A stretch of 64,000 bases of DNA from Lachnospiraceae bacterium (GCA_024697065.1 JAILGE010000007.1:52658-116657); one strand, 5' to 3'; shown: positions 14,358 to 60,965, numbered from the stretch's first letter. Notes: generated by a model from the letters alone, not told the origin. Translations and numbers: made by a program.

Positions 14358-14361
14358 CTCC

Positions 14362-14433
14362 TGGGCTGTCGCCAAGCGGTAAGGCACAGGGTTTTGATCC
14401 CTGCATGCGCCGGTTCGAATCCGGCCGGCCCAG
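14362..14433 (+). tRNA. tRNA-Gln (TTG)
   Basis: Acceptor TGGGCTG/CGGCCCA, anticodon loop TTTTGAT, T loop TTCGAAT. Confidence 0.97.
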
Positions 14434-14450
14434 CTGCTTTTAAATATATT

Positions 14451-44928: not shown

Positions 44929-44945
44929 AAAAATAATAATATAGC

Positions 44946-45281: not shown

Positions 45282-45292
45282 TTTTCAGGGAT

Positions 45293-45838: not shown

Positions 45839-45871
45839 AACGCATTCTAAGATTCAAAGGAGGCTAAAAAA

Positions 45872-47665
45872 ATGAATGCAGCAGTAATATTATTGGTAAG
45901 CATCGCTGTTCTTGCCTGCGGTTACGTCTTCTACGGCGGATGGCTTGCAAAGAAGTGGGGCATCGATCCGAAGAAAAAGACTCCCGCTTATGAACATGAG
46001 GATGGAATGGACTATGTTCCCGCCAAGGCACCTGTTCTTATGGGACATCATTTTTCATCAATTGCCGGCGCCGGCCCCATTAACGGTCCTATTCAGGCAG
46101 CGGTATTTGGATGGGTTCCCGTACTTTTATGGATCATTATCGGCGGAATCTTCATGGGTGGTGTTCATGACTTTGGAGCGCTCTTTGCATCCATCAGAAA
46201 TGACGGAAAGTCCATCGGTGAAGTCATCGCAGATACAATGGGACAAAAGACCAAGAAGATCTTCCTGGCATTTGGATATCTTTCACTCTTACTTGTAGTA
46301 GCTGCATTCGGCTCCATAGTTGCAAGTACATTCGGTATTACAAATATGGCAGGTGCACCGGTCAATGAAGCGGCTTATGAAGCTAATACTTCTACAGCCA
46401 TGATCTCATTATTGTTCATCCTGCTTGCTATAGTATTCGGTCTGCTCGTTTACAGAGCTCATATGCCTATCGGTGTTGCAAGTGTGATCGGGATTATCGG
46501 TATCGTCGCTATTACGGCTCTCGGCCTTAATTTCCATCCTATAGCACTTTCCTACAAAGAATGGATGATAGTTCTCGGTGTTTATATTGCGGTTGCTTCC
46601 GTAACACCTGTATGGATACTTCTCCAGCCGAGAGATTATCTCTCAAGCTTTTTGCTGTACTTTATGATCGTTGTATCTGTTGTCGGTATTCTCGGATGTG
46701 CCGTTAGCGGTAATGCAAATCTTGAGATACCTGCTTTTCTTGGCGGATTTACGGCACCTGCATCCAACGGACTCTTTACAACAGGAACAATGTTCCCGGC
46801 TCTTTTCGTAACCATTGCATGCGGAGCGATCTCCGGATTCCATTCATTGGTTTCATCAGGTACAACATCAAAGCAGATATCCAGTGAAAAGGATGCACAG
46901 CCTGTTGCATACGGCTCAATGCTTATTGAATGTGTTGTAGGTGTCATCTCCCTTTGTGCGGTTGGTTTTTGCTGGAATCAGATAAAGGATGCCGCTGCTT
47001 CCGAGGCCGGACTCGCAGGAGCTGGTCTTGCTTCTCCTACAGCCGTATTTGCCACAGGTGTATCACAGATGATAGGATCTTTCGCAGGTGGCGCGGACGG
47101 TCAGGTTGCCAGAGTTATGTACAATATGCTTGTACTTGCGGTTTCCGTATTCTGTCTCACATCACTGGATACAGCAACGCGTCTTGCCAGATATATGTTC
47201 CAGGAATTCTGGCTTGCCAAGGGTGAGCAGCCTGCGGATGCAAAGGGCGTAAAGAAGGTACTTGCAAATCCTTATTTTGCTACGATCCTTACTGTTGTTC
47301 TCGGTATTGCTCTCGGTCTTACAGGTTACTCCAAGATATGGCCGCTTTTCGGTGCCGCAAACCAGTTGCTTGCAGCGGTAGGACTTATTGCTGTATGTAC
47401 ATGGCTTAAGTCCATAGGACGTAACAATAAAATGTTCTACGTTCCCATGGTATTTATGCTGATCGTGGCTATATCATCCCTTATCCAGACAATAATGGCG
47501 AAGTGCAGGATCCTTGCTGATCCTGCGGGAGCAGACAAGGGATGGATGGCAGCACAGTGCGGTATAGCAGTTCTTCTTGTGATACTTGCCATTACCATTG
47601 TGATCGATGCAGCTGCCACATTGTTTAAGTCATCGGATAAGACAAAAGCATCCGAAGCAAAATGA
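45872..47665 (+). CDS. cstA: Carbon starvation protein A family transporter
   Basis: DGMDYVP, GHHFSSIAGAGPINGP, ACGAISGFHSL, LDTATRLARY and WPLFGAANQLLA. Confidence 0.93.
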   Translation: MNAAVILLVSIAVLACGYVFYGGWLAKKWGIDPKKKTPAYEHEDGMDYVPAKAPVLMGHHFSSIAGAGPINGPIQAAVFGWVPVLLWIIIGGIFMGGVHDFGALFASIRNDGKSIGEVIADTMGQKTKKIFLAFGYLSLLLVVAAFGSIVASTFGITNMAGAPVNEAAYEANTSTAMISLLFILLAIVFGLLVYRAHMPIGVASVIGIIGIVAITALGLNFHPIALSYKEWMIVLGVYIAVASVTPVWILLQPRDYLSSFLLYFMIVVSVVGILGCAVSGNANLEIPAFLGGFTAPASNGLFTTGTMFPALFVTIACGAISGFHSLVSSGTTSKQISSEKDAQPVAYGSMLIECVVGVISLCAVGFCWNQIKDAAASEAGLAGAGLASPTAVFATGVSQMIGSFAGGADGQVARVMYNMLVLAVSVFCLTSLDTATRLARYMFQEFWLAKGEQPADAKGVKKVLANPYFATILTVVLGIALGLTGYSKIWPLFGAANQLLAAVGLIAVCTWLKSIGRNNKMFYVPMVFMLIVAISSLIQTIMAKCRILADPAGADKGWMAAQCGIAVLLVILAITIVIDAAATLFKSSDKTKASEAK

Positions 47666-47715
47666 TGATCACAGACCGGAAACGTATGTGAACGTCATCG
47701 TTATATCAGGATCCA

Positions 47716-47754
47716 AAAACAGGACTTTGTCATGGAACAGGGTCCTGTTTTTTT
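47716..47754 (+). terminator. Terminator after cstA
   Basis: AAAACAGGAC...GTCCTGTTTT followed by a T run. Confidence 0.75.
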
Positions 47755-47821
47755 GCTTGTAAGCTTACTTATATGTTTATGTAACCGTGAATATGATATA
47801 ATCTGTAAAAGGGGAAAGATA

Positions 47822-49750
47822 ATGAATACCTATTATAATAACGGGTATGATGTCGCGGCATTTTTCATATGTGTGTTTGCTTTTATCTATTTCTTCCAGG
47901 CACAGCATATCCGAAAACAACAGCACAGTCTGTATCTTCTTCTTCTGATATGCCTTCCTTTGACCTGTATGGGCAATATTCTTGCCGGCGGTATCGCTGC
48001 CCGCAGTACGGGGAAAGCATATGAGGTTCTGCGTGCCAATTTATTCATAGCATTTTATTTCGCTGCCAATTCATTGATATTCCCGCTTTTTACATTGTAT
48101 ATCCAGGGATTGAACGGTATTCTTTTTAACAAGAAAAGAAGCTATTATTTCAAATATCTTATCCCGTATTTCTTCGGACTGATCCTCATCATACTGAACT
48201 TCCGTTACAGATTCATGTTCTATTATGATGACAACTGTATATATCACAGGGGCAAATACATGTATCTGCTTTATTTCGGCGGTGCATGGTATGTGCTTGT
48301 GGCGCTTATTTCCTTTGCCGTTAACAGGGCTTATATGCCCAAGAGGAAAGTCAAGTATCTGTTCTTAAGTATGTTTTATTCAATAGTGGGATTTCTTGTT
48401 CAGCTCATGTTCAAAGAGTATCAGGTTCAGCTGTTCGGCGAATCCCTGACGGCACTGGCACTTCTTATCACCTGTGAAAATGAAGAGCAGGAAGTGGATA
48501 CCGACACCAGACTATATAATTACAATACTTTTATTGATGACTTCAATACAGCCAAGACCAAGGGTGACAGATATTCCATTATCACAGTTGTGCTTGCTAA
48601 TTCCGAGCATGCAATGCCGGATCTCTCACAGTGGGAATACGGTACTCTTCTCAGATCCATAGCATGGGAGCTTAATGAAACCGGTGCCGGAGTCAGAGTG
48701 TACCGTTACGGAAGTGAGAAGTTCGTGCTTATGCCGGAGGAGTCTACCGTATTCGACAGAGCTACAAGGACCGACAGGATAATCGAAAGGATAACGGACA
48801 GATTTTCACGTGAATGGAAGGTGGGAGATAAGTCTGTTATCATAAATGTGGTGATAACCGTTGCCAGAATGCCCGGTGAGATAGAAGGGCTGACCATAAA
48901 GGATCTCTTTTACAAAGGAAATCTCAATTTCAGCAAGAGCAATATAATAGTCAGAAGATCGGAAGATCTGGAATCTCTTCGTAACAGAGCGGAGATAAGA
49001 GATGCGGTGAGACGCGGTTGCAATTCGGGAGCATTTAAGGTTTACTATCAGCCCATATGGTCAAAGAAAAAGGGCAAAGTTGTCAGCGCTGAAGCTCTGG
49101 TAAGATTGAGTGATCCTATATTGGGTATGATATATCCAGATGATTTTATTGATGTGGCGGAAGAATCAGGCCTCATTAATGAGCTGGGAAAGATCGTGTT
49201 TGAAAATGTCTGCAGGTTTTATTCCGAGAAAAGACCTGACAGACACGGCTTAAAGTGGATAGAGATCAACGTGTCTCCGTATCAGCTCTGCGATCGCGAT
49301 CTTACGGATACATTTTTAAAACTCCTCAGGGAATACAATGTGCCAGTATCATTTATCAATCTGGAGCTTACGGAGACTGCTGATTCAATGAGTGACGGTA
49401 GGATGAACGAGACCTTAAAGGAACTCAGGGATTTGGGATTCTCTTTTTCAATGGATGATTACGGCACGGGTTATTCCAATCTTTCAAGCCTGGTGTCCGG
49501 AAATTATAAGCTTGTTAAGGTTGATAAATCCATTCTCTGGAATGCGGATAACAAAGAAGGCGATGACCTGCTCATAAAAGTGATGGAGATACTGAATTCC
49601 ATGAATATCGAGACTCTCCAGGAAGGTGTAGAGACAAAGGAACAGTTAGATAAAGTTACAGGGCTTGGATGTGATCTGATACAGGGGTATTATTTTTCAA
49701 AACCTGTACCGGAAGAAGAATTTGTGGAGTATATAAAAAACCAGATATGA
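47822..49750 (+). CDS. Membrane (about 7 TM) degenerate-GGDEF + EAL c-di-GMP phosphodiesterase
   Basis: YYQPI..AEALVR, IEINVS, LELTE, DDYGTGYS and EGVET are intact. The GGDEF position reads YGSEK. Start at 47822 after GGGGA. Confidence 0.88.
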   Translation: MNTYYNNGYDVAAFFICVFAFIYFFQAQHIRKQQHSLYLLLLICLPLTCMGNILAGGIAARSTGKAYEVLRANLFIAFYFAANSLIFPLFTLYIQGLNGILFNKKRSYYFKYLIPYFFGLILIILNFRYRFMFYYDDNCIYHRGKYMYLLYFGGAWYVLVALISFAVNRAYMPKRKVKYLFLSMFYSIVGFLVQLMFKEYQVQLFGESLTALALLITCENEEQEVDTDTRLYNYNTFIDDFNTAKTKGDRYSIITVVLANSEHAMPDLSQWEYGTLLRSIAWELNETGAGVRVYRYGSEKFVLMPEESTVFDRATRTDRIIERITDRFSREWKVGDKSVIINVVITVARMPGEIEGLTIKDLFYKGNLNFSKSNIIVRRSEDLESLRNRAEIRDAVRRGCNSGAFKVYYQPIWSKKKGKVVSAEALVRLSDPILGMIYPDDFIDVAEESGLINELGKIVFENVCRFYSEKRPDRHGLKWIEINVSPYQLCDRDLTDTFLKLLREYNVPVSFINLELTETADSMSDGRMNETLKELRDLGFSFSMDDYGTGYSNLSSLVSGNYKLVKVDKSILWNADNKEGDDLLIKVMEILNSMNIETLQEGVETKEQLDKVTGLGCDLIQGYYFSKPVPEEEFVEYIKNQI

Positions 49751-50595
49751 TAAGAATTAATGAGATAGGTGATTTAAGTAACAAAGAGCTTGAAGTATAT
49801 AAGGATCTCAATGAAGCCGAACTGAGGCATTATTACGAGCCGAAGGGAGGCATTTTTATTGCCGAGAGCATGAAAGTTATCAGACGTGCTCTTGATGCCG
49901 GGATGCAGCCGGAGTCTCTGCTTATGGAGAAAAAACTTGTGGCTGACGGGGAAGCAAAAGACATACTTGGACTTTTGCCCGATGATATTCTGGTATATAC
50001 GGCCGAAAAGAAAGTGCTCGAAGAGATAACGGGATACAATCTGACAGGCGGTATGCTCTGCGCAATGAAAAGACCGAAGCTTTTTTACTTTGATGATCTT
50101 TTATCAGACAAGGCAGGCATGAATAAGATAGCAGTACTTGAGAATGTCCAGAATCCTACGAATACCGGAGCGATATTTAGAAGTGCCGCTGCCTTCGGGG
50201 TGGACGGAGTGATCCTTACCAAAGGCTGCAGTGATCCCCTTGAGAGGCGTTCCATCAGAGTAAGCATGGGAACTGTATTCGCTATACCATGGACATACTA
50301 TTCCGATATGGATACTGACATAGCTTCTGCTTTGAAGCAAAGGGGTTTTTCAACCATTGCCATGGCGTTAGCAGAGGGCGCAAAGAGTCTGGATGATCAG
50401 GTGTTGAAACAGGAAGAGAAAGTAGCTGTCATGATAGGTAATGAAGCACATGGTCTTTCGGAAGCTGTACTTGCAAATGCCGATCATAAAGTCATTATCC
50501 CCATGTCAAACGGTGTGGACTCGCTCAATGCAGCAGCAGCCAGTGCAGTTGCCTTTTGGGAGCTTATGAGAGTCAGAGAACAGGTTGAAAAATAA
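49747..50595 (+). CDS. TrmH/SpoU family RNA methyltransferase
   Basis: NPTNTGAIFRSA, IGNEAHGL and IPMSNGVDSLNAA. Confidence 0.92.
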   Translation: MIRINEIGDLSNKELEVYKDLNEAELRHYYEPKGGIFIAESMKVIRRALDAGMQPESLLMEKKLVADGEAKDILGLLPDDILVYTAEKKVLEEITGYNLTGGMLCAMKRPKLFYFDDLLSDKAGMNKIAVLENVQNPTNTGAIFRSAAAFGVDGVILTKGCSDPLERRSIRVSMGTVFAIPWTYYSDMDTDIASALKQRGFSTIAMALAEGAKSLDDQVLKQEEKVAVMIGNEAHGLSEAVLANADHKVIIPMSNGVDSLNAAAASAVAFWELMRVREQVEK

Positions 50596-50601
50596 GAACT
50601 G

Positions 50602-52242
50602 ATGTTCTATAATTCTCCTATGTCTTTATACGGTAGCGGAAAATATTATACAGATACTCCAATCGATTTCGGAAGGGGAGCAGGCCGGAGTACATCTGGC
50701 AGTGAAGGCGGATGGGATTATGTCAGACCTTCCGCACAGGGGAGAGATTTATCCGGTTTTAATCCGCTTCCCGGCTATGAAAAAGACAATACGGATAATT
50801 TTCCTGCGGATACCCCTGATGAGATAAAAGCTCTCTGGAAAGAATGCAGGAGCGAGAGTGTCTTTCTGTTAAGGAATGAGTCTTTCTACAGACAGGCACA
50901 GATGATGAAGGATTTTAAGGATGCCTACGAGCCTGTTCCGTATTCAGCTCATTTCCCTGTTTTCGCAAATATGAAGGTCTCACAGATGCGCAGTTACTTT
51001 TCTTTCAGGAGAGAAGCCAGACGCAGCGTGTTTCTTAAAGTATCCCCGGCTTATATCTATGTATATGTATTCGAGATCCTTTGCGGTATAGGGATCAGGG
51101 ATGAAAGGCAGGCTTTTGATATGTTGGATGAGCTTGCTGATGCATATAAGGATGAGTATCCGGCTCTTACGGAAGACATAAGACGCTGGATGAAAGATTA
51201 TGCCGTCTGTCACGGCATGACTGATGAGATCGAGACATATTTTGAGAAAGAGAAGCTCTCGGATAAAAATATAGAGATCATTTTTTATCCTGACCGTTAT
51301 GACAGGGATCAGATATTTGAGGCGGTCTGTGAATTTTCAGCTTATAAGATAGATAAATCCGTTTTTTACAAGAAGTATCCCGATACGGTAAAGCAGGCTG
51401 TTGTCAGGACCATCGAGGCGATGAATGAATACTATCAAAGCCTTTGCAAGAGATCATTTTTCGAATACTGTTTCGGTCTGATGAAGCAGAATCCTTACAG
51501 ACCATTTAACGGAGCAGTATTTTTTACTCCGGATAAGCAGGCGCAGGCGGAGATAAGGATAGATCCGGTGAGAGTATTCAGATGCAGAGAGGGGATATGG
51601 ACCTTGAGCTGCATAAATACACACGGAAAGAACAAAGCGCTGGGCAATGTGTTAAGGAAGCTGGACAGACAGTTAAGGATCGCTTACGGTTTTAACCGTG
51701 AGCTTAAGGACAATTCGCCGGATCCGTTAATGGATATTTATATCAGAAAAGCTGTGGAAGCGACCAGACAGGATGAATATCTTGAATTGCATCCGCCGAT
51801 AGAAGTTGACCTGTCAAAGCTTGCGGATATAAGAAGCGATGCTGATGTGATAAGAGATGCTTTGTTGACGGAAGAAGAAAGAGATGATATTTATGCGGCG
51901 CCTGTTATTGATGACGGCGGATTTACCACTGATGGATACAACGGTGCCGGATCGGGAACGGAACCGGTATCAGAACCGGAACCTGTATCAGAACCGGTAT
52001 CTGCACCAGGATCAGAATCAGAATCGCTGCTTACCGAAGATGAGATCGGATTTCTGAGACTCGTATCAGAGCATGGGGACTGGAGGTCATTCTTAAAGAA
52101 GATACATGTCATGGAAGGTGTTATGGTGGATGCCGTAAATGCCGCATTCCTGGATATCATCGGTGACAGCGTGATAGAGGATGATAACGGAGAGCTTCGC
52201 ATAGTAGCCGATTATGAGAATGATGTCCTTGATCATATCTGA
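50602..52242 (+). CDS. TerB_N / TerB_C domain protein
   Basis: N-terminal YFSFRREAR..YIYVYVFEILCGIG pattern. C-terminal VDLSKLADIRSDA..IRDALL and VDAVNAAFLDIIGDSVIE pattern. A PEPVSE-type linker lies at about 51955-52025. Confidence 0.75.
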   Translation: MFYNSPMSLYGSGKYYTDTPIDFGRGAGRSTSGSEGGWDYVRPSAQGRDLSGFNPLPGYEKDNTDNFPADTPDEIKALWKECRSESVFLLRNESFYRQAQMMKDFKDAYEPVPYSAHFPVFANMKVSQMRSYFSFRREARRSVFLKVSPAYIYVYVFEILCGIGIRDERQAFDMLDELADAYKDEYPALTEDIRRWMKDYAVCHGMTDEIETYFEKEKLSDKNIEIIFYPDRYDRDQIFEAVCEFSAYKIDKSVFYKKYPDTVKQAVVRTIEAMNEYYQSLCKRSFFEYCFGLMKQNPYRPFNGAVFFTPDKQAQAEIRIDPVRVFRCREGIWTLSCINTHGKNKALGNVLRKLDRQLRIAYGFNRELKDNSPDPLMDIYIRKAVEATRQDEYLELHPPIEVDLSKLADIRSDADVIRDALLTEEERDDIYAAPVIDDGGFTTDGYNGAGSGTEPVSEPEPVSEPVSAPGSESESLLTEDEIGFLRLVSEHGDWRSFLKKIHVMEGVMVDAVNAAFLDIIGDSVIEDDNGELRIVADYENDVLDHI

Positions 52243-52281
52243 GTGATATCCTAATGGTTTTGTTTATGAAAGGTTTTAAGT

Positions 52282-53619
52282 ATGGAAGAAGTTAAAAAAG
52301 TTCCGCGCAGGATAGCGCAGACATTGATAAGTTCGTTAAAAGGCGGTGTTGTTCCCAGGATAGGCCTGCCTTATATTACGGTTGGAAGACGCAGAGAGGT
52401 TGAAGCGCTTTTAAAAGATATAGAGATGATAGAAGAAGGAGGAGCATCCTTCAGATTTATCGTGGGAAAATACGGCGCCGGCAAATCCTTTCTCCTTCAG
52501 TCCATAAGGAATTATGCAATGGACAGGAATATGGTAGTAGTGGATGCGGATCTGTCTCCGGAGAGAAGACTTCAGGGAAGCGGAGGACAGGGGCTGGCAA
52601 CATACAGAGAACTTATCGGAAATCTGTCAGTCAGGACCAAGCCCGAAGGCGGCGCCCTCACTATAGTTTTAGACAGATGGATACAGTCGGTGCAGTCTGA
52701 AGTGGCGGCAACAGAGGGAATATCACCGGATGATCCTGCATTTGCTAAGCGGACTGAACAGCGTATATACAGTGTTATACGATCAATGAATGACATGGTT
52801 CACGGCTTTGACTTTGCCAGGGTTATCTCACTTTATTACAAGGCATATGTAAATGATGATGATGATATGAGAGCAAAGGCGGTAAGATGGCTTCGCGGAG
52901 AATATAGCACCAAATCCGAAGCCAAGGCTGATCTGGGTGTTACGTCATATATTTCCGATGATGACTGGTATGAATATTTAAAGCTTTTCGCAGGTTTTTT
53001 CAGAAAAGCCGGATACAGAGGAATGCTTGTATTCATAGATGAGCTTGTAAATATCTACAAAGTACCAAACAGCATCACACGTCAATACAATTACGAGAAG
53101 ATCCTCACAATGTATAATGATGCGATGCAGGGAAAGGCCCATTTCATAGGAACGGTAATGTGCGGTACGCCCCAGGCTATAGAAGATACCAGACGCGGAG
53201 TTTACAGTTATGAGGCTCTGCGTTCCAGATTATCCGAGGGAAAATTTGCCCAGTCCGGGGTTCAGGATCTGCTAGCTCCGGTCATAAGGCTTGAGCCTCT
53301 GACTGCCGAAGAGATGTTGGTGCTTACGGAGAAGCTTGCAAAAATACATGCAGGGCTTTACGGATATGAAGAGATCCTTACGGAGAATGATCTGGCAGAT
53401 TTCATAAGGATAGAATACGGCAGGATAGGTGCGGATACTTCCATAACTCCCCGTGAGGTCATCAGGGATTTTATTGAATTACTGGATATCATTTACCAGA
53501 ATCCGGGAATGAGACCTGCGGATCTTTTAGGGTCGGACAGATTTTCCTATGCCAGACCTGATACGGGAGACACGTCAGACATTCCGGAAGACAACATGTT
53601 TGCGGAATTTAAGCTTTAA
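52282..53619 (+). CDS. P-loop ATPase, DUF2791/BrxD-like
   Basis: SLKGGVVPRIGL, GRRREVEAL, Walker A GKYGAGKS, SPERRL and Walker B VFIDE. Confidence 0.85.
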   Translation: MEEVKKVPRRIAQTLISSLKGGVVPRIGLPYITVGRRREVEALLKDIEMIEEGGASFRFIVGKYGAGKSFLLQSIRNYAMDRNMVVVDADLSPERRLQGSGGQGLATYRELIGNLSVRTKPEGGALTIVLDRWIQSVQSEVAATEGISPDDPAFAKRTEQRIYSVIRSMNDMVHGFDFARVISLYYKAYVNDDDDMRAKAVRWLRGEYSTKSEAKADLGVTSYISDDDWYEYLKLFAGFFRKAGYRGMLVFIDELVNIYKVPNSITRQYNYEKILTMYNDAMQGKAHFIGTVMCGTPQAIEDTRRGVYSYEALRSRLSEGKFAQSGVQDLLAPVIRLEPLTAEEMLVLTEKLAKIHAGLYGYEEILTENDLADFIRIEYGRIGADTSITPREVIRDFIELLDIIYQNPGMRPADLLGSDRFSYARPDTGDTSDIPEDNMFAEFKL

Positions 53620-53636
53620 GAGATTCGAGGCGGGAA

Positions 53637-55940
53637 ATGGATATTTACAGAAGGTATGCGCCTTTTATACAAGAATTCATTTACAGGAATAACTGGGAGA
53701 ATCTCCGTGCTATCCAGGCGGCAGCAGGAGATGCCATATTCAATACAAATGAAAATGTTCTTTTGTCGGCATCGACAGCATCAGGCAAAACCGAGGCTGC
53801 TTTTTTTCCTATACTCACGCTCTTAAATGAAGAACCTTCATCATCCATCGGTGTTTTGTATATAGCACCCCTAAAGGCTCTTATCAATGATCAGTTCATC
53901 AGATTAAACGATCTGTGTGAAGAGGCAGGTATTCCTGTCTGGCACTGGCACGGTGATGTTTCACCGGATAAGAAGCGGAAAATGATAAAGCATCCGGAAG
54001 GCATATTACAGATCACTCCGGAATCTCTGGAGGCAATGCTCCTAAGAAGGCACAGTGAGATCCCAAAGATCTTTGGTGATCTTAAGTTTGTTGTGATAGA
54101 TGAGATACACTCATTTCTGCGCTCCGACAGGGGCGGACAGATGTTATGTCTGTTAGAGAGACTGTCACGGGCAGCCTCCGTTAATCCCAGACGTGTAGGA
54201 CTCTCGGCTACGATAGGTGATCCGGGACTTGTGGGTGAATTCCTGGCAGCAGGTACGGGCAGAGGCACTGTTATCCCGAGGATAGAATCTGCGGGAGCCA
54301 ATTGGCGAATAAATATGGAGCACTTCTATCTGACAGCGCCTCAGGCATCGGAAAATCCCGTGAGGAACAAGCCTCAGTCAAAGAACGGGGGATCAGTGTC
54401 AGCTGACGATGAGGCTTTGAGAATGCGGATGGGGGATTTTCCCACGGAGCAAAAAAGCGATACAGCGCCTTCGGCAGCCGATCCCGGAATGGGATATATA
54501 TTTGAACATACCAGAGGAAAGAAGTGTCTTGTATTCTCAAATTCAAGAGAAGAATGCGAGGCTGTTACCCATGAGCTCAGACAGTATTGCGAAGCCATGC
54601 ATGAGCCTGACAGATTCCTGATCCATCACGGCAATCTGTCTACATCATACAGGGAAAGCGCGGAAGATATCATAAAAGAAGAAGACAGTCTTGTTACCAT
54701 ATGTACGACTTCAACTCTTGAACTCGGTATCGATATAGGAAGGCTGGAGAGGGCATTCCAGATAGATGCACCGTTTACGGTCTCTTCATTCCTGCAGCGT
54801 ATGGGAAGGACCGGAAGAAGAGGCGCACCTTCCGAAATGTGGTTTGTTATGCGTGAAGAACATGCAGAGCAAAGAGCGCTGCTTCCGGAGACGATCCCGT
54901 GGAAGCTTTTACAGGGCATCGCATTGATACAGTTGTATATTGAAGAGCGTTGGGTAGAACCTCCCACAACCGAAAGGTATCCGTACAGTTTATTATACCA
55001 TCAGACCATGAGTATCCTTGCGTCAGGAGGAGAGATGACTCCTGCCGAGCTTGCCGGCAGAGTGCTTACTCTTTCGTATTTTAGAAATGTCTCTCAGGAT
55101 GATTTCAGGATGCTTTTGAATCATCTTATTGAGAAGGATCATATTCAGCTGACTGAGCGCGGAGGTCTGATCGTAGGGCTTGAAGGTGAACGTGTAGTCA
55201 ATAATTTTAAATTCTATGCAGTGTTTCAGGATAATGAAGAATACAGCGTGCGCTGTGAATCCGAAGAACTGGGAACACTTGTTGCACCACCGCCTGTAGG
55301 CGACAAGATCGCCATTGCGGGACATGTATGGGTAGTGGAAGAAGTTGATCCGAAGCGCCATCAGGTTTACTGTTCTCTTGTTAAGGGAAATGTACCTGCC
55401 TATTTCGGAGATGTTCCCGGAGATATAAATACCAGGATCCTGTTAAGAATGAAGAAAGTCCTGGAGGAGAGGTTAACTTATCCTTACCTTTTAACCAATG
55501 CAAAGGCCAGATTATTCCAGGCAAGAGATACGGCCGAGAGATCCTTTGTTACTTCAAAGCCACTTGTTAATATCGGAGGCAGGATGTATTGCATTTTCCC
55601 GTGGCTCGGGACATATTCATTTCTTGCTATGGAGAGGTTCCTTAAAATACGTTGCGCGGAGAGGCTGGGACTTAAGGGATTTATTTCATTAAGACCGTAT
55701 TATATGCAGTTTACCATGGCGGTTTCCGAACAGGAATTCTACGATATACTCGCAGAAGAACTGGAGAAACCCTTAGATCCCATGGAACTTGTCTTTCCGA
55801 AGGAAGTGCCTGTTTTTGACAAATATGATGATATGCTCCCTGAAGAACTGGTAAAAAAGGGATTTGCTTACGGTGTTTTAAATATCGGGGAAATGCAAAA
55901 CTGCATACGTGGATGGATATCCGGACGGCGTGAACTTTAA
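53637..55940 (+). CDS. Lhr-like SF2 DEAD/DEAH-box helicase
   Basis: STASGKT, PLKALINDQ, TPESLE, DEIH, SAT, TSTLELGIDIG and QRMGRTGRR. Confidence 0.9.
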   Translation: MDIYRRYAPFIQEFIYRNNWENLRAIQAAAGDAIFNTNENVLLSASTASGKTEAAFFPILTLLNEEPSSSIGVLYIAPLKALINDQFIRLNDLCEEAGIPVWHWHGDVSPDKKRKMIKHPEGILQITPESLEAMLLRRHSEIPKIFGDLKFVVIDEIHSFLRSDRGGQMLCLLERLSRAASVNPRRVGLSATIGDPGLVGEFLAAGTGRGTVIPRIESAGANWRINMEHFYLTAPQASENPVRNKPQSKNGGSVSADDEALRMRMGDFPTEQKSDTAPSAADPGMGYIFEHTRGKKCLVFSNSREECEAVTHELRQYCEAMHEPDRFLIHHGNLSTSYRESAEDIIKEEDSLVTICTTSTLELGIDIGRLERAFQIDAPFTVSSFLQRMGRTGRRGAPSEMWFVMREEHAEQRALLPETIPWKLLQGIALIQLYIEERWVEPPTTERYPYSLLYHQTMSILASGGEMTPAELAGRVLTLSYFRNVSQDDFRMLLNHLIEKDHIQLTERGGLIVGLEGERVVNNFKFYAVFQDNEEYSVRCESEELGTLVAPPPVGDKIAIAGHVWVVEEVDPKRHQVYCSLVKGNVPAYFGDVPGDINTRILLRMKKVLEERLTYPYLLTNAKARLFQARDTAERSFVTSKPLVNIGGRMYCIFPWLGTYSFLAMERFLKIRCAERLGLKGFISLRPYYMQFTMAVSEQEFYDILAEELEKPLDPMELVFPKEVPVFDKYDDMLPEELVKKGFAYGVLNIGEMQNCIRGWISGRREL

Positions 55941-55986
55941 CGGTTTTAAGTCATGTATCATAATATGCCCAAAAGCATCCCGGTTT

Positions 55987-56004
55987 GTTAAGGATAATTT
56001 AAGG
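55987..56004 (+). promoter_or_regulatory. OmpR/PhoB-type direct repeat upstream of the DUF975-RR-HK operon
   Basis: GTTAAG-GATAA-TTTAAG(G), an 11-bp period matching the NTTAAG-N5-TTTAAG pattern. Confidence 0.55.
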
Positions 56005-56110
56005 TTATCAGATCTAAACGGAAAGATTTGAGCTGTAAGATGAACACATAAACTTAAATCCATAACAGCCTGCGAATATGAGCCGGCAAAAAAATGAGGA
56101 GGAAAAGATC

Positions 56111-56968
56111 ATGTGGACAAGAAAACAGCTTAAGGAAAGGGGAAAAAAAGCATTCACAGCCAATTATTGGAAGTGCCTGCTGGTAGCTCTTATATTTGCA
56201 ATGATCGCAGGAGGCGGCGGAAGCGGATACAGCGGAGGCGGCGGAAGGAGCGGAGCAGGAGCATTCGGAACAGCTGCTGAAGTAGATACTGTTGAGGATA
56301 CGGATGCCGATACGGATGAAGATGCGAATGACGAAGCTGATGATAATGAAGTTACAAATCAGGGCGACGTTGAATTCGCTCAGAGCTTTTCCGACAGTGC
56401 TGCGCAAAAGGGAGTTAAGGTTGCTGCGCTGATCATCGGTGGCATAGTTGCGGTGGTCATTGTTCTGTTAGTCCTTGTGATCGCATCGGTGGTTTCCGCA
56501 TTCGTTCTTAATCCCTTTGAACTTGGATGCTGCAGATTTTTTTACAGAAATCTTGATGAGCCGGCTAAAGTTTCAAATGTAGTATATGCATTTGATCATA
56601 ATTATATGAATCTGGTAAAGAACTTATTCTTCAGGGATCTTTACGTAATGCTTTGGAGTTTGCTTTTTATCATCCCCGGTATTGTAAAGGCATATGAATA
56701 CAGGATGATACCCTATATTTTGCAGGACAATCCGGAAATGAGCAAAGATGAAGTTTTTGATCTCAGCAGGAAGATGATGACGGGAAATAAATGGAAAGCT
56801 TTTGTTCTTGATCTTTCCTTTATGGGATGGCACATTTTATCGCTCTTTACATGTGGATTGTTATCTATCTTCTATGTAAGTCCTTACCAGAATTCAACAA
56901 ATGCCGCACTATACGAAGCTATCAAGCTTGAAAACGGTGCACAGGGAGATATCGTATATGAAGCATAA
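56111..56968 (+). CDS. DUF975 family membrane protein
   Basis: MWTRKQLKERGK, LWSLLFIIPGIVKAYEYRMIPYIL, MTGNKWKAFVLDLSF and VSPY..ALY. Confidence 0.85.
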   Translation: MWTRKQLKERGKKAFTANYWKCLLVALIFAMIAGGGGSGYSGGGGRSGAGAFGTAAEVDTVEDTDADTDEDANDEADDNEVTNQGDVEFAQSFSDSAAQKGVKVAALIIGGIVAVVIVLLVLVIASVVSAFVLNPFELGCCRFFYRNLDEPAKVSNVVYAFDHNYMNLVKNLFFRDLYVMLWSLLFIIPGIVKAYEYRMIPYILQDNPEMSKDEVFDLSRKMMTGNKWKAFVLDLSFMGWHILSLFTCGLLSIFYVSPYQNSTNAALYEAIKLENGAQGDIVYEA

Positions 56969-57644
56969 GATACTCATCGCAGATGATGAAGCTGAGATCA
57001 GAAACCTGTTACGTCTGTATCTTGAGAATGAAGGATATGATGTGACGGAAGCGAAGGACGGAGTCGAAGCACTCCGTCTCCTTCGTGACGAAAAGCCGGA
57101 TCTTTGCCTTTTGGATATAATGATGCCTGCCTCGGACGGATACCGGGTACTTAAGGAACTCAGAGAAACAAGTAATATCCCTGTTATTTTTATTTCTGCC
57201 AAGGATGCTGATTCGGAAAAGATTTTAGGGCTTAACCTGGGGGCGGATGATTATATCGCAAAACCTTTTGATCCCCTTGAAGCAGTGGCAAGAGTCAATT
57301 CCAATATCAGAAGATTTTATTCGCTGGGAGCTGCGAGCGGTGCGGTAAAGGAGTCTGTTAAGATAAAGGATCTTGAACTTGATATAGAATCCTGTATCCT
57401 CAAAAAACAGGGGCAGCCCATAGAACTCACAAGTGTGGAATATAAACTCATGGAACTGTTTATGACACATCCGGGCAAGGTCTTTACCAAGCAGCAGTTA
57501 TACGAACACGGCTGGGGAGATGAGTTTTTCCTGGCTGATAATAATATAATGGTCTGCATATCAAAGCTCCGTTCAAAATTATCCGACGACCCTTCGGCGT
57601 ATATCAAAACTCTGAGAGGGTTGGGATACCGTATGGAGAATTAA
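56958..57644 (+). CDS. OmpR-family response regulator
   Basis: ILIADDE, LLDIMMP, GADDYIAKPF and winged helix (TLRGLGYR). Confidence 0.95.
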   Translation: MKHKILIADDEAEIRNLLRLYLENEGYDVTEAKDGVEALRLLRDEKPDLCLLDIMMPASDGYRVLKELRETSNIPVIFISAKDADSEKILGLNLGADDYIAKPFDPLEAVARVNSNIRRFYSLGAASGAVKESVKIKDLELDIESCILKKQGQPIELTSVEYKLMELFMTHPGKVFTKQQLYEHGWGDEFFLADNNIMVCISKLRSKLSDDPSAYIKTLRGLGYRMEN

Positions 57645-58868
57645 ATGGATAAGCTGAAAGAATTAAGGATTTCTTTGATAAGAAAATTCTTAAGGACGGT
57701 GTTTGTGGTCAGTGTGGTGGAATATTTCCTCATCACATTGCTTTCACACACCGTTCAGCCTTTTGTGATTCATTTCTTTTTTAATGATGCAGAACCAGGA
57801 AGCCTGGGGATGATGGGTGTGCTGGTGGTAGCCATCATTGTTCTTGCAACCCTTATATCCGAGCTTATCATGATAATAATCCCCGGCAGGCTCGGTGCAC
57901 TGATCTCGAATATATCAGTCAGCATGGATAAGATCTCGGCGCTTGTTTTGGGAGATGCGGGGCTGTCATTGACTAAAATGGGGAAGATCCGGTCGCTGGA
58001 ACTGTTCGCCGTGATCTTAGCTTCACTTGTGATCCTGATAATCCCCTTCTTGATCGCTGCCGTGTATTTTGCGGGGATCATAATAAAGGATTTTAAACAG
58101 ATAGAGAAAGCCGATAAAGAAAAGCAAAGGGAATATGAGAGAAAAAGAAACCGTATGCTTTCCGATATCGCTCATGATCTGCGGACACCAATGACGACGG
58201 TATCGGGATATGCAAGGGCTTTGTCTGACGGACTGATAAAGGATGACGAAACACAAAAGAAATATCTTGATACCATAAGAGCAAAAACCGCGCGGATGAA
58301 TGAGCTCATCAATTTTCTGTTTGATTATGTTAAAACAGACAGTGAAGGTTTTGAGCTTCATAAAGAAAAGACGGATATCTGTGAGCTTGCAAGGGAATGC
58401 GTTGTCGTGCTCTACAGTGACATGGAAGAAAAGGAGATAGAGACGGATGTCGATATCCCTGACGAGATCATCGAGATAGAAGCGGACAAACTCCAGCTTT
58501 CGAGAGTGATAACAAATCTGATAAACAATGCGATCAAGCATAATGACAAAGGAACACGTATCGGGATAATCCTTGAAAGGGATTACAATTCTTTACGCCT
58601 CATGATCGCGGACAACGGGAAAAAGATAGATGATGATATGGCTGAACATATCTTCGAGCCATTCTATATGGGAGACGAATCGAGAAACAGCAGAGGGGGA
58701 ACGGGACTCGGTCTGTCTATAGCCGAAAGGATAATCTCTCTTCACGGATTTAAGATAAAGCTTATCCGGTCGCCGTTTATCAAAAAATATCCCAAAGCAG
58801 AAAGCTACGAGAAGATGTTTATGATAACGATGGATATTCCGGATGCGAAAGAGTTAACTCCCACTTGA
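57645..58868 (+). CDS. Sensor histidine kinase
   Basis: TMs, IAHDLRTP, NLINNAIKH and GTGLGLSI. Confidence 0.95.
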   Translation: MDKLKELRISLIRKFLRTVFVVSVVEYFLITLLSHTVQPFVIHFFFNDAEPGSLGMMGVLVVAIIVLATLISELIMIIIPGRLGALISNISVSMDKISALVLGDAGLSLTKMGKIRSLELFAVILASLVILIIPFLIAAVYFAGIIIKDFKQIEKADKEKQREYERKRNRMLSDIAHDLRTPMTTVSGYARALSDGLIKDDETQKKYLDTIRAKTARMNELINFLFDYVKTDSEGFELHKEKTDICELARECVVVLYSDMEEKEIETDVDIPDEIIEIEADKLQLSRVITNLINNAIKHNDKGTRIGIILERDYNSLRLMIADNGKKIDDDMAEHIFEPFYMGDESRNSRGGTGLGLSIAERIISLHGFKIKLIRSPFIKKYPKAESYEKMFMITMDIPDAKELTPT

Positions 58869-58916
58869 TTTTATGTAAATGTGGTGTTAAACTGTCTAAC
58901 GATAAGAGATGTTTAG

Positions 58917-58947
58917 TAAGAGAAGGTTCGCGCCTTCTCTTATTTGT
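58917..58947 (+). terminator. rimP leader hairpin (probable weak, NusA-dependent attenuator)
   Basis: TAAGAGAAGG-TTCGCG-CCTTCTCTTA with a poor U tract, just upstream of rimP. The position matches the ylxS/rimP leader known in B. subtilis. Confidence 0.6.
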
Positions 58948-58967
58948 TGTAAGAGACGGAGAATGAT

Positions 58968-59432
58968 ATGTCTGCAAAACAGTATGAGGAGATGGCGGAA
59001 AGCCTTGTTACTCCCATCACGGAATCTATGGGGATTTCCGTTTATGATGTGGAATATGTAAAAGAAGGCGGCGACCATTATCTGCGGATCTACATCGACA
59101 AACCGGGCGGCGTGAACATAAATGACTGTGAAGCTGTAAGCCGTGCCTTTTCCGACAGGCTCGATGAGGTTGATCCCATTCCGGATGCTTATATCATGGA
59201 AGTGAGCAGCCCGGGGCTCGGCAGGAGTCTGAAGAAGGACCGGCACTTTGAAAAGAGTATAGGCGCCGAAGTTGATATAAAGCTTTTTGAAGCTCAGGAT
59301 GGCACAAAGGAATACAGCGGAGTACTCAAGGCTTTTGATAAAGATACGGTGACCATAACCGTAGACGGCAATGAAGATAAGTCTTTTGCGAGAAAAGGAA
59401 TTGCATCAACGAGACTTAAGATAGATTTTTAA
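58968..59432 (+). CDS. rimP: Ribosome maturation factor RimP
   Basis: LRIYIDKPGGV..DCE, YIMEVSSPGL.R and synteny with nusA. Confidence 0.96.
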   Translation: MSAKQYEEMAESLVTPITESMGISVYDVEYVKEGGDHYLRIYIDKPGGVNINDCEAVSRAFSDRLDEVDPIPDAYIMEVSSPGLGRSLKKDRHFEKSIGAEVDIKLFEAQDGTKEYSGVLKAFDKDTVTITVDGNEDKSFARKGIASTRLKIDF

Positions 59433-59482
59433 AAAGATCATCAGTACATTTAACACCAATATTTCCAGGAGGAAAAAGGAAA

Positions 59483-60673
59483 ATGAACACAGAACTGAAG
59501 CAGGCACTTGATGTACTTGAAAGGGAGAAAGAGATTCCCAGAGATAGTATTTTTGAGGCGATCAGCAATTCGCTTGTAACAGCATGCGGAAAGAAGTACA
59601 AGAGCTCCGACAATATCCGTGTCGATATCGACAGGGATGAATGTGAGTTCCATGTTATCGCCACCAAGGAAGTAATAGAGCTTGCCGATGATGTAATGGA
59701 TCCGGCTATCGAGATCAGTCTTGATGATGCAAAGAAGGTTGAGCCTGATGCAAAGCCCGGAGATATGGTTGAGATCGAGATCGATTCCAGAGAGTTCGGA
59801 CGTATCGCAACCCAGACCGCTAAGAGCGTTATCACACAGAGACTTCGTGAAGAAGAAAGAAATGTTATCTTTAATCAGTTTGCTGACAAGCGCAGAGAAG
59901 TTATCACAGGTGTGATCCAGAGACGTGTAGGAAAGGGCTGGAGCGTAAATCTCGGAAGAACAGATGCTCTTCTTCCCGATTCCGAGACTGTTCCTTCGGA
60001 ACACCTTAAGGCAAACAGCAGGGTAAAGGTTTATGTTCTTGAAGTCCTTGCAACATCAAAGGGATCAAGGATCACCGTAAGCCGTTCTCATCCGGATCTT
60101 GTAAAGCGTCTCTTTGAAGAGGAAGTTACAGAGATCAAGGACGGTACCGTTGAGATCATGAATATCGCGAGAGAGCCCGGCAGTCGTACCAAGATCGCAG
60201 TTCTTTCCAACAATCCCAATGTGGATCCTGTGGGTGCATGTGTCGGAGTTAACGGTATCCGTGTTAATGCCATTGTTAATGAGCTTTTCGGAGAGAAGAT
60301 CGATATCATCTGCTGGGATGAGAATCCCGGTGAGCTTATAAAGAATGCGCTTTCACCTGCAAAGATCGTAAATGTATTTGCCGATCCCGAAGAGAAGAAG
60401 GCAAATGTTGTCGTTCCCGACAGCCAGCTTTCACTTGCCATCGGTAAGGCAGGACAGAATGCAAGACTTGCCGCAAAGCTTACAAATTACAAGATCGATA
60501 TCAAATCCGAATCACAGGCTAAGGATGCCTTCGGATTCAGGATCGAGGACTATATGGACGGTGAGTACGAAGAAGGTACTTATGAAGAGGCTTCTTTCGA
60601 AGGAGAATATGAAAATGAAGCTCCTGAGACAGCTGAGTCTGCAGAAGTGACAGAAGCACCTGAGGAAAACTGA
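59483..60673 (+). CDS. nusA: Transcription termination factor NusA
   Basis: FGRIATQTAK, AREPGSRTKIAV, DPVGACVG and AIGKAGQNARLAAKLT. Confidence 0.97.
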   Translation: MNTELKQALDVLEREKEIPRDSIFEAISNSLVTACGKKYKSSDNIRVDIDRDECEFHVIATKEVIELADDVMDPAIEISLDDAKKVEPDAKPGDMVEIEIDSREFGRIATQTAKSVITQRLREEERNVIFNQFADKRREVITGVIQRRVGKGWSVNLGRTDALLPDSETVPSEHLKANSRVKVYVLEVLATSKGSRITVSRSHPDLVKRLFEEEVTEIKDGTVEIMNIAREPGSRTKIAVLSNNPNVDPVGACVGVNGIRVNAIVNELFGEKIDIICWDENPGELIKNALSPAKIVNVFADPEEKKANVVVPDSQLSLAIGKAGQNARLAAKLTNYKIDIKSESQAKDAFGFRIEDYMDGEYEEGTYEEASFEGEYENEAPETAESAEVTEAPEEN

Positions 60674-60695
60674 GAAACTGAAAGTAAGGTTGCCT

Positions 60696-60965
60696 ATGGC
60701 TAAGAAGATCCCGCAGCGGTCATGCGCCGGATGCGGAGCTGTAAAAGATAAAACTGAACTGATGCGTGTCATACGTACGCCGGAAGGTCAGATCACATTG
60801 GACCGGACCGGCAGAGCTGCAGGGCGCGGTGCCTATGTGTGCAGAGACCTTGCATGTCTGACTAAGCTCAGGAAGAAGAACGGACTGGCAAGATCCTTTG
60901 GGATGCCGGTTCCGGAAGAGATTTATGATGCTTTGGAAAAGGAGTTTGAAGTTGACGCCAGATAA
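60696..60965 (+). CDS. ylxR: YlxR family RNA-binding protein
   Basis: PQRSCAGC, GRGAYVC and synteny. Confidence 0.93.
   Translation: MAKKIPQRSCAGCGAVKDKTELMRVIRTPEGQITLDRTGRAAGRGAYVCRDLACLTKLRKKNGLARSFGMPVPEEIYDALEKEFEVDAR

What the first reader, a model, noticed from the sequence alone, without database searches (positions are those of the whole stretch)
50602..55940. Three-gene TerB_N/C + BrxD-like ATPase + Lhr-like helicase module, a probable anti-phage system
SEEN: three closely spaced co-oriented genes inserted between a trmH gene and a DUF975/two-component operon. The ATPase has intact Walker A/B (GKYGAGKS, IDE). The helicase has motifs I-VI (DEIH, QRMGRTGRR). I recognise no methylase, pglZ or nuclease gene nearby. 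KNOWN: TerB_N/TerB_C proteins were described in operons with an AAA+ ATPase and an SF2 helicase and predicted to act in stress response or phage defence; DUF2791 and Lhr-like helicases correspond to BrxD and BrxHI of type 2 BREX. INFERENCE: this is a minimal BREX-related defence module whose sensor and effector are not obvious. It may already be named in recent defence catalogues.
Basis: partly seen in the sequence, partly recalled or inferred. Interest (0 to 1): 0.68.

Follow-up and report, generated by a model that had tools for sequence, protein, structure and literature searches.

The report
Shango anti-phage operon (sngABC)
The three genes are a complete copy of Shango, an anti-phage defence system named in 2022-2023 whose mechanism is still unknown. 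Here it sits alone among housekeeping genes of an uncultured rumen or gut Lachnospiraceae bacterium, so it is an ordinary new member of a known system.

Summary
Three intact, co-oriented genes lie at 50602-55940. All three match the PADLOC Shango models over nearly their full length: SngA 2.3e-59, SngB 3.6e-190, SngC 4.4e-277. These scores are far above the BrxD and BrxHI models, and NCBIfam's BrxD model falls below its cut-off. Shango was validated in E. coli and P. aeruginosa, but its mechanism is unknown.

The window holds no PglZ, PglX, DNA methylase, nuclease, integrase or other defence system. It is therefore not BREX, although SngB and SngC are homologues of the BrxD-BrxHI pair of type 2 BREX.

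Findings that go beyond the name:
- The cassette is orthologous, and under purifying selection, in the sister species Lachnospiraceae XPB1003. The difference between the two species is the DUF975/two-component block, not Shango.
- SngB and SngC are 65-76% identical across Bacillota and Bacteroidota, whereas SngA is only 24-35% identical.
- This SngA has TerB_N and TerB_C but no TerB domain and no transmembrane segment.
- A TTGAAA-17-TATAAT promoter-like element travels with the cassette and suggests a leaderless sngA starting at 50620.

Most likely mechanism (inferred): SngA is the variable sensor or adaptor, SngB an ORC/Cdc6-like loader, and SngC an Lhr-like helicase that disrupts phage DNA replication.

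The parts
50585..50613 (+). Promoter-like element: -35 TTGAAA (50585-50590), 17-nt spacer, -10 TATAAT (50608-50613). It overlaps the end of the SpoU gene and the first in-frame ATG (50602).
   Evidence: It is the best sigma-70-type match in the region, 11 of 12 positions. The block including GATGTTCTATAAT is conserved in L001. It is also conserved in L081, where the upstream gene is tpiA, SngA is only 35% identical, and the ATG inside the motif is followed by a stop after 4 codons. A -35-like TTGTAT sits at the same 17-nt spacing there. The 13-mer occurs nowhere else in the window. Among the loci fetched by then, it occurs only in front of sngA. Function is inferred; no transcript 5' ends were available.
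50620..52242 (+). sngA. The ORF is open from 50602 (546 aa); the probable start is 50620 (540 aa). Domains are TerB_N plus TerB_C, with no TerB (PF05099) domain. It is the fast-evolving subunit.
   Evidence: PADLOC SngA 2.3e-59, covering residues 71-543 against profile positions 67-524 of 528. Pfam finds TerB_N and TerB_C only, even at E<=10. The gene caller uses the 540-aa start. The AF2 model has pLDDT 67 and shows: disordered 1-63, helical 126-291, beta sheet 295-337, long helices 345-431, disordered acidic/Pro linker 433-474, and a C-terminal helix-helix-helix-hairpin at 479-545. There is no convincing transmembrane segment.
52282..53619 (+). sngB: a BrxD-like (DUF2791, ORC/Cdc6-type AAA+) ATPase with intact Walker A and B motifs.
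   Evidence: PADLOC SngB 3.6e-190 over its full length, against BrxD 3.9e-50. Pfam PF10923 7e-169. NCBIfam BrxD is below its cut-off. Motifs confirmed. An SD-like AAAGG lies upstream.
53637..55940 (+). sngC: an Lhr-like SF2 DEIH helicase with RecA1, RecA2, a winged-helix region, a beta-barrel and an alpha/beta C-terminal domain. No nuclease domain was found.
   Evidence: PADLOC SngC 4.4e-277 over its full length, against BrxHI 4.6e-120. The nearest solved structures are Lhr 5v9x (phmmer 3e-31; Foldseek 1.2e-19, 873 alignment columns, global TM-score only 0.26) and MrfA 6znp. Motifs I, II, III and VI are present. Conservation runs through to about residue 750.
58915..58944 (+). Terminator-like hairpin that probably ends the transcription unit. 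In the sister species the same hairpin follows sngC directly. Here it is separated from sngC by the DUF975, response-regulator and histidine-kinase block (56078-58868).
   Evidence: 13-bp stem, free energy -16.5 kcal/mol, z = -3.6. It is conserved in L001 immediately after sngC. The simple scan did not flag it because the T-run is short, and it found no + strand terminator-like site between the sngC stop (55940) and the DUF975 start (56078).

Best explanation
This is a complete Shango (sngA-sngB-sngC) anti-phage operon in the chromosome of a rumen or gut Lachnospiraceae.

Shown:
- All three family memberships hold, with intact catalytic motifs.
- The genes are under purifying selection.
- The position is orthologous in a sister species.
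- SngB and SngC are homologous to the BrxD-BrxHI pair of type 2 BREX.
- There is no recognisable nuclease, methylase or membrane domain.

Inferred mechanism: SngA is the diversifying sensor or adaptor subunit. It evolves about 2-3 times faster than its partners and carries a disordered acidic linker and a small C-terminal winged-helix-shaped module with conserved acidic residues. SngB, an ORC/Cdc6-type AAA+ ATPase, loads or activates SngC on DNA. SngC is an Lhr-like helicase (Lhr itself is a 3'-5' translocase), and it unwinds or strips phage replication or recombination intermediates. Phage DNA replication then fails without programmed death of the cell. Any DNA degradation would be left to host nucleases.

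The operon probably has its own promoter (50585-50613) and a leaderless sngA start at 50620. In this genome it probably reads on into the DUF975/two-component genes.

Sub-confidences: it is Shango, 0.95; it defends this host against phages, about 0.75; the mechanism as stated, about 0.3.
For: - Family membership: PADLOC SngA, SngB and SngC at 2.3e-59, 3.6e-190 and 4.4e-277, nearly end to end and well above the BrxD and BrxHI models.
- Motifs are intact.
- Selection: dN/dS is 0.03-0.07 against XPB1003, like the flanking housekeeping genes.
- The triad is invariably intact in every other locus whose gene content was examined (at least 10 distinct ones).
- Mobility and defence context elsewhere: next to Fic, an integrase, type I R-M S subunits and DUF1016; next to conjugative-element genes; SngB/BrxD-like ATPase matches on 691 plasmids.
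- Rate asymmetry: SngB 65-72% and SngC 66-76%, against SngA 24-35%.
- SngC resembles Lhr and MrfA over its whole length.
- BrxD is proposed as a loader or activator of BrxHI, and BrxHI has a wHTH, a beta-barrel and an Lhr-type C-terminal domain (PMC12839542). This matches the secondary-structure layout of the SngC model.
- Promoter conservation.
Against: - No member of this Bacillota/Bacteroidota clade has been tested. The validated systems are proteobacterial. A proteobacterial SngB is only about 41% identical, and its SngA carries a TerB domain that this one lacks.
- The locus is not in a defence island. It is stably inherited, has the same G+C as its flanks, and has no mobile-element scars. 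A housekeeping DNA-metabolism role would look the same.
- No effector is identifiable, so 'helicase as effector' is an argument from absence.
- The structure models are mediocre (pLDDT 65-67).
- The winged-helix match of SngA is weak: E about 0.5, and the aligned residues were not reported.
- Transcription, the transcription start site and any complex between the three proteins are untested. RNA data were unusable.
Confidence: 0.7

Rival explanations
1. In this lineage the triad is a DNA-repair or replication-stress module, related to Lhr and MrfA, and not a dedicated anti-phage system. Any phage effect would be incidental.
For: The context is entirely housekeeping: purine genes, ClpC, RadA, CstA, the SpoU methylase, then rimP-nusA. 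The position is orthologous and the genes are under strong purifying selection in two species with saturated dS. SngB and SngC show very high cross-phylum conservation. The nearest solved relatives, Lhr and MrfA, are DNA-damage-response helicases (their roles are from established knowledge). There was no presence/absence variation in three metagenome runs.
Against: Distribution is patchy and context differs in every other genome. The SpoU neighbourhood of a related Lachnospiraceae (NK4A179) carries no copy. SngB/BrxD-like ATPase matches occur on plasmids, and triads lie beside defence and integrase genes and on a few predicted viral contigs. The family has experimentally shown anti-phage activity. 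The fast-evolving SngA fits an arms race better than a repair factor. NCBIfam Lhr and ligase-associated helicase models score far below their cut-offs.
Confidence: 0.12
2. Shango acts by abortive infection. Once SngA senses infection, unrestrained SngB/SngC ATPase and helicase activity depletes ATP or unwinds host DNA, and the cell stops growing or dies before phage release.
For: There is no nuclease or modification gene, so self and non-self discrimination is not obvious. Two ATPases sit in one system. Many sensor-plus-NTPase systems act this way (general knowledge).
Against: [quoted passage not shown] That is not the usual abortive-infection signature. No toxin-like domain was found.
Confidence: 0.13
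3. Membrane surveillance: SngA is a TerB protein that monitors the inner membrane and signals phage-induced membrane perturbation to SngB and SngC. This is the idea offered in the literature.
For: It was proposed for Shango and Bunzi because TerB is membrane-associated. A proteobacterial SngA does contain a TerB domain (PF05099, 3.1e-07).
Against: The window's SngA, and two other SngA proteins of its clade, have no TerB domain. The only hydrophobic peak (147-165) is a conserved helix inside the TerB_N bundle of the model. SngC is a DNA helicase with several nucleic-acid-binding modules.
Confidence: 0.04
4. It is a remnant of a type 2 BREX system that has lost its core genes.
For: SngB hits the Pfam BrxC_BrxD family. 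SngC hits the PADLOC BrxHI model at 4.6e-120.
Against: The Sng-specific models score about 2-4 times higher. NCBIfam BrxD scores 169.5 bits against a cut-off of 350. None of the 46 other ORFs is PglZ, PglX, PglW or BrxC. The same three-gene unit recurs on its own in every examined locus.
Confidence: 0.01

Closest known systems
Shango (SngABC) of E. coli and P. aeruginosa PA14 (Millman et al. 2022; Johnson et al. 2023)
   Same: The three genes are in the same order: a TerB_N/TerB_C protein, a DUF2791 ATPase and a DEAD/DEAH helicase. All three PADLOC Shango models match nearly over their full length. A proteobacterial plasmid copy gives very similar model scores.
   Different: It belongs to a distinct clade of Bacillota and Bacteroidota. 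SngB is about 41% and SngC about 31-35% identical to SngB/SngC-like pairs on predicted viral contigs, whose taxonomy and sngA were not examined; a Pantoea (proteobacterial) plasmid SngB is 41.5% identical. SngA lacks the TerB (PF05099) domain that the Pantoea SngA has. It lies alone in a core-genome region, not in a defence hotspot. It has not been tested experimentally.
BrxD-BrxHI pair of type 2 BREX (Pgl)
   Same: It is a homologous pair: an ORC/Cdc6-type AAA+ ATPase plus an Lhr-like helicase with a wHTH, a beta-barrel and an Lhr-type C-terminal domain. The two genes are tightly linked in both systems. A loader-plus-helicase relationship has been proposed for BREX (PMC12839542).
   Different: PglZ, PglX, PglW and BrxC are absent. 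The BrxD equivalog model scores below its cut-off. The pair is partnered with SngA instead of a modification module.
Lhr and MrfA (YprA) DNA-damage-response helicases
   Same: They are the best solved-structure relatives of SngC, and the alignment spans the whole length. The DExH core and C-terminal accessory domains are shared.
   Different: Sequence identity is only about 17-20%. NCBIfam Lhr-type models score far below their cut-offs. No MrfB-like exonuclease partner is present, and the operon partners differ.
TerB of the tellurite-resistance (ter) operon, and the TerB-containing defence systems Bunzi and Dionysus
   Same: They share the naming and the TerB_N/TerB_C domains, which were first defined next to TerB (established knowledge: Anantharaman, Iyer and Aravind 2012). 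All are linked to phage defence.
   Different: There is no TerB domain, no transmembrane helices and no pore-forming or lipid-binding partner here. The partners here are DNA motors.
Hachiman (HamAB)
   Same: It is a defence system built around an SF2 helicase that surveys DNA. HamB is a detectable but weak relative.
   Different: Hachiman has a dedicated nuclease effector (HamA), and HamB is Ski2-like. SngC groups instead with BrxHI, DruE and DpdJ (PMC12278908). No nuclease is present here.

Membership tests
Shango defence system | SngA-family protein (TerB_N plus TerB_C architecture) | tested here: met
   PADLOC PDLC03958 SngA, 2.3e-59, 200 bits, profile positions 67-524 of 528. Pfam TerB_N 43.6 bits and TerB_C 62.7 bits, both above their cut-offs.
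Shango defence system | SngB-family ATPase | tested here: met
   PADLOC SngB 3.6e-190, 631 bits, profile positions 4-439 of 439, against 169 bits for BrxD. Walker A and B motifs are intact.
Shango defence system | SngC-family SF2 helicase | tested here: met
   PADLOC SngC 4.4e-277, 920 bits, profile positions 5-716 of 720, against 400 bits for BrxHI. Motifs I, II, III and VI are present.
Shango defence system | All three genes adjacent and co-oriented in one cluster | tested here: met
   The gaps are 39 nt and 17 nt, all on the + strand. The same order is seen in all other loci examined.
Shango defence system | Protects against phage infection | not testable with these tools
   This is shown only for the E. 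coli and P. aeruginosa homologues.
BREX type 2 | PglZ alkaline-phosphatase-family protein | tested here: not met
   No such Pfam or PADLOC hit among the 46 other ORFs of the window.
BREX type 2 | PglX DNA methyltransferase, plus BrxC/PglY and PglW | tested here: not met
   The same screens found no DNA methyltransferase, no BrxC and no kinase/NERD protein. The PADLOC table shows only the top 25 of 32 families, so a very weak hit cannot be excluded.
BREX type 2 | BrxD equivalog | tested here: not met
   NCBIfam NF033438 scores 169.5 bits against a cut-off of 350.
Tellurite-resistance TerB family (PF05099) | TerB domain | tested here: not met
   Pfam gives no PF05099 hit even at E<=10. A Pantoea SngA does have one at 3.1e-07.
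Lhr / ligase-associated DEXH helicases | Score above the NCBIfam equivalog cut-off | tested here: not met
   TIGR04121 scores 197.7 against 850; PRK13767 scores 174.7 against 849; PRK09751 (Lhr) scores 90.3 against 1496. The fold-level resemblance is real.

The most novel reading that the evidence does not exclude
In the gut and rumen Bacillota/Bacteroidota clade, Shango works without any TerB domain or membrane link. SngB and SngC form a nearly invariant, horizontally exchanged loader-plus-Lhr-like-helicase motor, shared in origin with type 2 BREX. SngA is a rapidly diversifying specificity subunit that decides which phages are recognised. The cassette carries its own promoter and expresses sngA as a leaderless mRNA.
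Probability: 0.3. Interest if true: 0.5.

Novelty: new member of a known kind. Interest (0 to 1): 0.27.

Why it matters
As an annotation it is routine: PADLOC or DefenseFinder would label it Shango. Its value lies in Shango's mechanism, which is still unknown. Three observations narrow the options:
- The subunits evolve at very different rates, with SngA variable and SngB/SngC near-invariant across phyla.
- A whole clade lacks the TerB domain, which weakens the 'membrane surveillance' idea.
- SngB and SngC are clearly homologous to the BrxD-BrxHI pair.

Together these point to concrete experiments: SngA swaps, loader-helicase biochemistry, and comparison with type 2 BREX. The locus also shows that a defence cassette can sit alone and be inherited stably inside a core-gene region. 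Methods that rely on defence islands miss such cases.

Tried and rejected
- A DNA search of sngB and sngC against 5,426 complete E. coli genomes (blastn, distant mode) found nothing. The sequences are too divergent at the DNA level, so no direct comparison with the validated E. coli system was possible.
- SngB against 50,697 phage genomes found no match. IMG/VR gave only 8 loci (L086-L093) carrying an SngB/SngC-like pair of another clade, plus one fragmentary helicase match.
- A second word-indexed protein search with the SngA alignment found no new homologues, so the SngA structure model rests on 9 sequences (pLDDT 67). The exhaustive profile search did show a large family: 4,466 clusters at E<=1e-3.
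- Foldseek of the SngA model against PDB gave no hit at E<=0.001. The best were weak matches to LysR-type winged-helix domains. Sequence searches of SngA and SngB against PDB found nothing, apart from the YjbR domain that relatives carry and this protein lacks.
- A metagenome scan with the upstream EAL protein, meant to score locus occupancy in relatives, found only two close relatives. Both are on contigs that end before the sngA position. Presence or absence across the genus therefore remains unresolved. Three runs of one study all carry the cassette at even depth, with no deletion joint.
- RNA evidence for co-transcription was unusable. The only 'RNA' runs are low-depth contigs flagged as genomic.
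- No flanking repeats, tRNA gene or integrase mark an insertion of Shango.
- Anantharaman et al. 2012 (PMC4104200) is not held in the library. Statements about it rest on my own knowledge.
- Incomplete BREX was considered and rejected (see the rival explanations).


Full report
**1. What is there**

The window carries three long, intact, co-oriented ORFs at 50602-52242, 52282-53619 and 53637-55940.
- The first has Pfam TerB_N and TerB_C.
- The second matches BrxC_BrxD (DUF2791) over its full length at 7e-169.
- The third has DEAD plus Helicase_C.

- SngB: GKYGAGKS at 62-69 and LVFIDE at 249-254.
- SngC: ASTASGKT at 45, DEIH at 155, SAT at 190 and QRMGRTGRR at 387.

**2. Identity**

Against PADLOC-DB the three proteins match SngA (2.3e-59, 200 bits), SngB (3.6e-190, 631 bits) and SngC (4.4e-277, 920 bits) nearly end to end. 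The BREX models score much lower: BrxD 169 bits and BrxHI 400 bits. NCBIfam's BrxD equivalog scores 169.5 bits against a cut-off of 350.

This is the Shango system. It was described in parallel by Millman et al. 2022 (E. coli) and Johnson et al. 2023. [quoted passage not shown]

I found no paper that establishes a mechanism:
- A 2025 preprint still calls the role of TerB proteins unclear and repeats the 'membrane surveillance' idea.
- The Hachiman paper places SngC with BrxHI, DruE and DpdJ in a separate SF2 clade.
- The PDB holds no sequence relative of SngA or SngB.

**3. Surroundings**

All 46 other sizeable ORFs of the window are ordinary chromosomal genes. They include homoserine dehydrogenase, aspartokinase, NrdD, purine genes, ClpC, RadA, SurE, an oligopeptide ABC transporter, shikimate dehydrogenase, CstA, an EAL phosphodiesterase, a SpoU/RlmB-like RNA methyltransferase, then DUF975, a response regulator, a histidine kinase, RimP and NusA.

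A PADLOC screen of all of them gave only generic hits: ABC ATPases, two-component proteins and a class III cyclase. It gave no PglZ, PglX or BrxC. There is no integrase, no transposase and no tRNA gene at the borders, and G+C does not shift. So this is not BREX, not a defence island, and not visibly a mobile element.

**4. Comparative genomics**

The organism is a Lachnospiraceae from gut or rumen metagenomes. The nearest species representative is Lachnospiraceae bacterium XPB1003. It has the same order, CstA-EAL-SpoU-SngA-SngB-SngC, followed by RimP-NusA.
- Protein identities are 75%, 92% and 91% for SngA, SngB and SngC, against 71-97% for the flanks.
- dN/dS is 0.03-0.07, like the flanks, with saturated dS.

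The cassette has therefore been inherited vertically and kept by selection in both species. The 2.9-kb DUF975/two-component block (56078-58868) is missing from XPB1003. There, sngC is followed directly by the hairpin that in the window lies at 58915-58944. So the difference between the two species is the DUF975 block, not Shango.

The triad is not a universal housekeeping operon, because the same clade occurs in unrelated contexts:
- after tpiA in another Lachnospiraceae;
- after a DUF308 gene in Ruminococcus flavefaciens;
- next to conjugative-element genes in Chryseobacterium;
- next to Fic, an integrase, type I R-M S subunits and DUF1016 on a Bacteroidota-like contig.

SngB/BrxD-like ATPase matches occur on 691 plasmids. 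There are none in 50,697 phage genomes, and only a handful on predicted viral contigs. Three metagenome runs of one study carry the cassette at even depth with no deletion variant.

**5. Anatomy and evolution of the parts**

The subunits evolve at very different rates. Across seven independent loci, SngB is 65-72% and SngC 66-76% identical to the window's proteins. These loci span Bacillota and Bacteroidota. SngA in the same loci is only 24-35% identical. Between the two sister species, SngA's changes are concentrated in three places: the disordered N-terminus (61% identity), the acidic, Pro-rich linker at 433-478 (22%), and the C-terminal module (69%).

The SngA model has pLDDT 67. Its layout is:
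- a disordered head (1-63);
- a helical TerB_N bundle carrying the invariant Q-x-R-x-Y-F-x2-R-x3-R motif;
- a small beta sheet and long helices;
- a disordered linker;
- a C-terminal three-helix-plus-hairpin module.

Foldseek matches an approximately 69-residue segment weakly to LysR-type winged-helix domains (E about 0.5, probability 0.96-0.99). The tool did not report which residues aligned; assigning the match to the C-terminal module (479-545) is my inference from its secondary structure. Its invariant residues are acidic (D510, N513, D522, D537, Y538), so metal or protein binding is as likely as DNA binding.

SngA has no TerB (PF05099) domain even at E<=10, and neither do two other clade members. 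A Pantoea plasmid SngA does have one. There is no convincing transmembrane segment. Many relatives carry an N-terminal YjbR/MmcQ domain that this protein lacks.

SngC's best structural relatives are Lhr (5v9x; the alignment spans the protein, although the global TM-score is only 0.26) and MrfA. Its predicted layout is RecA1, RecA2, a helical winged-helix region, a beta-barrel and an alpha/beta C-terminal domain. This matches the published description of BrxHI. The same paper describes BrxD as an ORC/Cdc6-type AAA+ ATPase that may load or activate BrxHI (PMC12839542). That paper does not mention Shango or TerB (no occurrence of either term). No nuclease domain was found in any subunit.

**6. 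Expression signals**

The SpoU stop (50595) is 6 nt from the first ATG of the ORF. A near-consensus promoter-like element, TTGAAA-17-TATAAT, spans 50585-50613. The block GATGTTCTATAAT, with a -35 at the same spacing, is conserved in XPB1003. It is also conserved in the tpiA-linked cassette, where that ATG is followed by a stop after four codons, so the block is not conserved as coding sequence.

The second ATG (50620) lies 6 nt after the -10 hexamer and has no Shine-Dalgarno sequence. sngB and sngC do have SD-like sequences. The gene caller and the N-termini of homologues favour 50620. I infer that the cassette carries its own promoter and a leaderless or near-leaderless sngA. This is untested.

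**7. Mechanism**

Shown: membership, intact motifs, selection, homology to BrxD-BrxHI, and absence of nuclease, methylase and membrane features.

Inferred, at about 0.3: SngA is the variable sensor or adaptor. SngB loads or activates SngC. SngC, an Lhr-like helicase, disrupts phage replication or recombination intermediates without killing the cell. This is consistent with the dose-independent protection reported for P. aeruginosa.

Rivals:
- a DNA-repair or replication-stress role in this lineage (0.12);
- abortive infection through runaway ATPase and helicase activity (0.13);
- membrane surveillance (0.04), weakened here by the missing TerB domain;
- a BREX remnant (0.01).

**8. Verdict**

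It is a new member of a known kind, from a clade that has not been tested experimentally. Interest is modest. It rests on the rate asymmetry between subunits, the TerB-less architecture and the cassette promoter, each of which bears on an unsolved mechanism.

Noticed in passing
window 44983-45249 (+): A T-box leader (Rfam RF00230, 93.4 bits, just above the gathering score of 93) lies directly upstream of a DUF8052 ORF (45245-45838) and CstA (45872-47665). The CstA-EAL-SpoU unit upstream of Shango may therefore be controlled by tRNA charging.
   Followed up: no
window 55938-58868 vs L001 16100-16130: The DUF975, response-regulator and histidine-kinase block is a 2.9-kb indel relative to Lachnospiraceae XPB1003. 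The breakpoints are at TAAC right after the sngC stop and at TAAC at 58855-58858. The roughly 30 nt of the kinase ORF ending at that TAAC (58830-58858; the ORF's stop is at 58866-58868) resemble the last 30 nt of sngC (55911-55940), which gives an imperfect direct repeat around the block.
   Followed up: partly
window 3787-5715 (+): A CHASE2-domain class III nucleotidyl cyclase; a PADLOC Pycsar cyclase (PycC) hit at 4e-24 in the window-wide screen most likely belongs to it (the screen does not name the member). No effector gene is adjacent, so it is probably an ordinary signalling cyclase. A GAF-GGDEF protein lies next to it at 2520-3734.
   Followed up: no
L074 10001-17118 and L075: A Shango variant in a metagenome contig has a YjbR domain fused to the N-terminus of SngA. 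It also has an amidinotransferase/arginine-deiminase-like gene (PF02274) inserted between sngA and sngB.
   Followed up: no
L084 3123-14223: A Shango of the same clade (SngC 71% identical) on a Bacteroidota-like contig lies beside Fic, a tyrosine integrase, two type I R-M S-subunit genes and DUF1016/YhcG genes. That is a typical defence island or shufflon context, unlike the window.
   Followed up: no
window 51943-52020 (+), within sngA: An 18-nt imperfect tandem repeat (GAACCGGTATCAGAACCG...) encodes the EPVSEPEPVSEPVSAP low-complexity linker of SngA. This is the least conserved part of the protein, at 22% identity to the sister species.
   Followed up: partly
window 54290-54460 approx. (SngC residues 216-272): A disordered, low-complexity insertion lies between the two RecA domains of SngC. 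It probably accounts for much of the length variation among otherwise near-invariant homologues (732-854 aa).
   Followed up: no
window 1-64000: Nearly all genes lie on the + strand, and GC skew is positive throughout the profiled stretch (44000-62000). This is consistent with one replichore of a Bacillota chromosome. tRNA-Gly is at 7939-8012, and tRNA-Arg, tRNA-His and tRNA-Gln are at 14158-14434.
   Followed up: no
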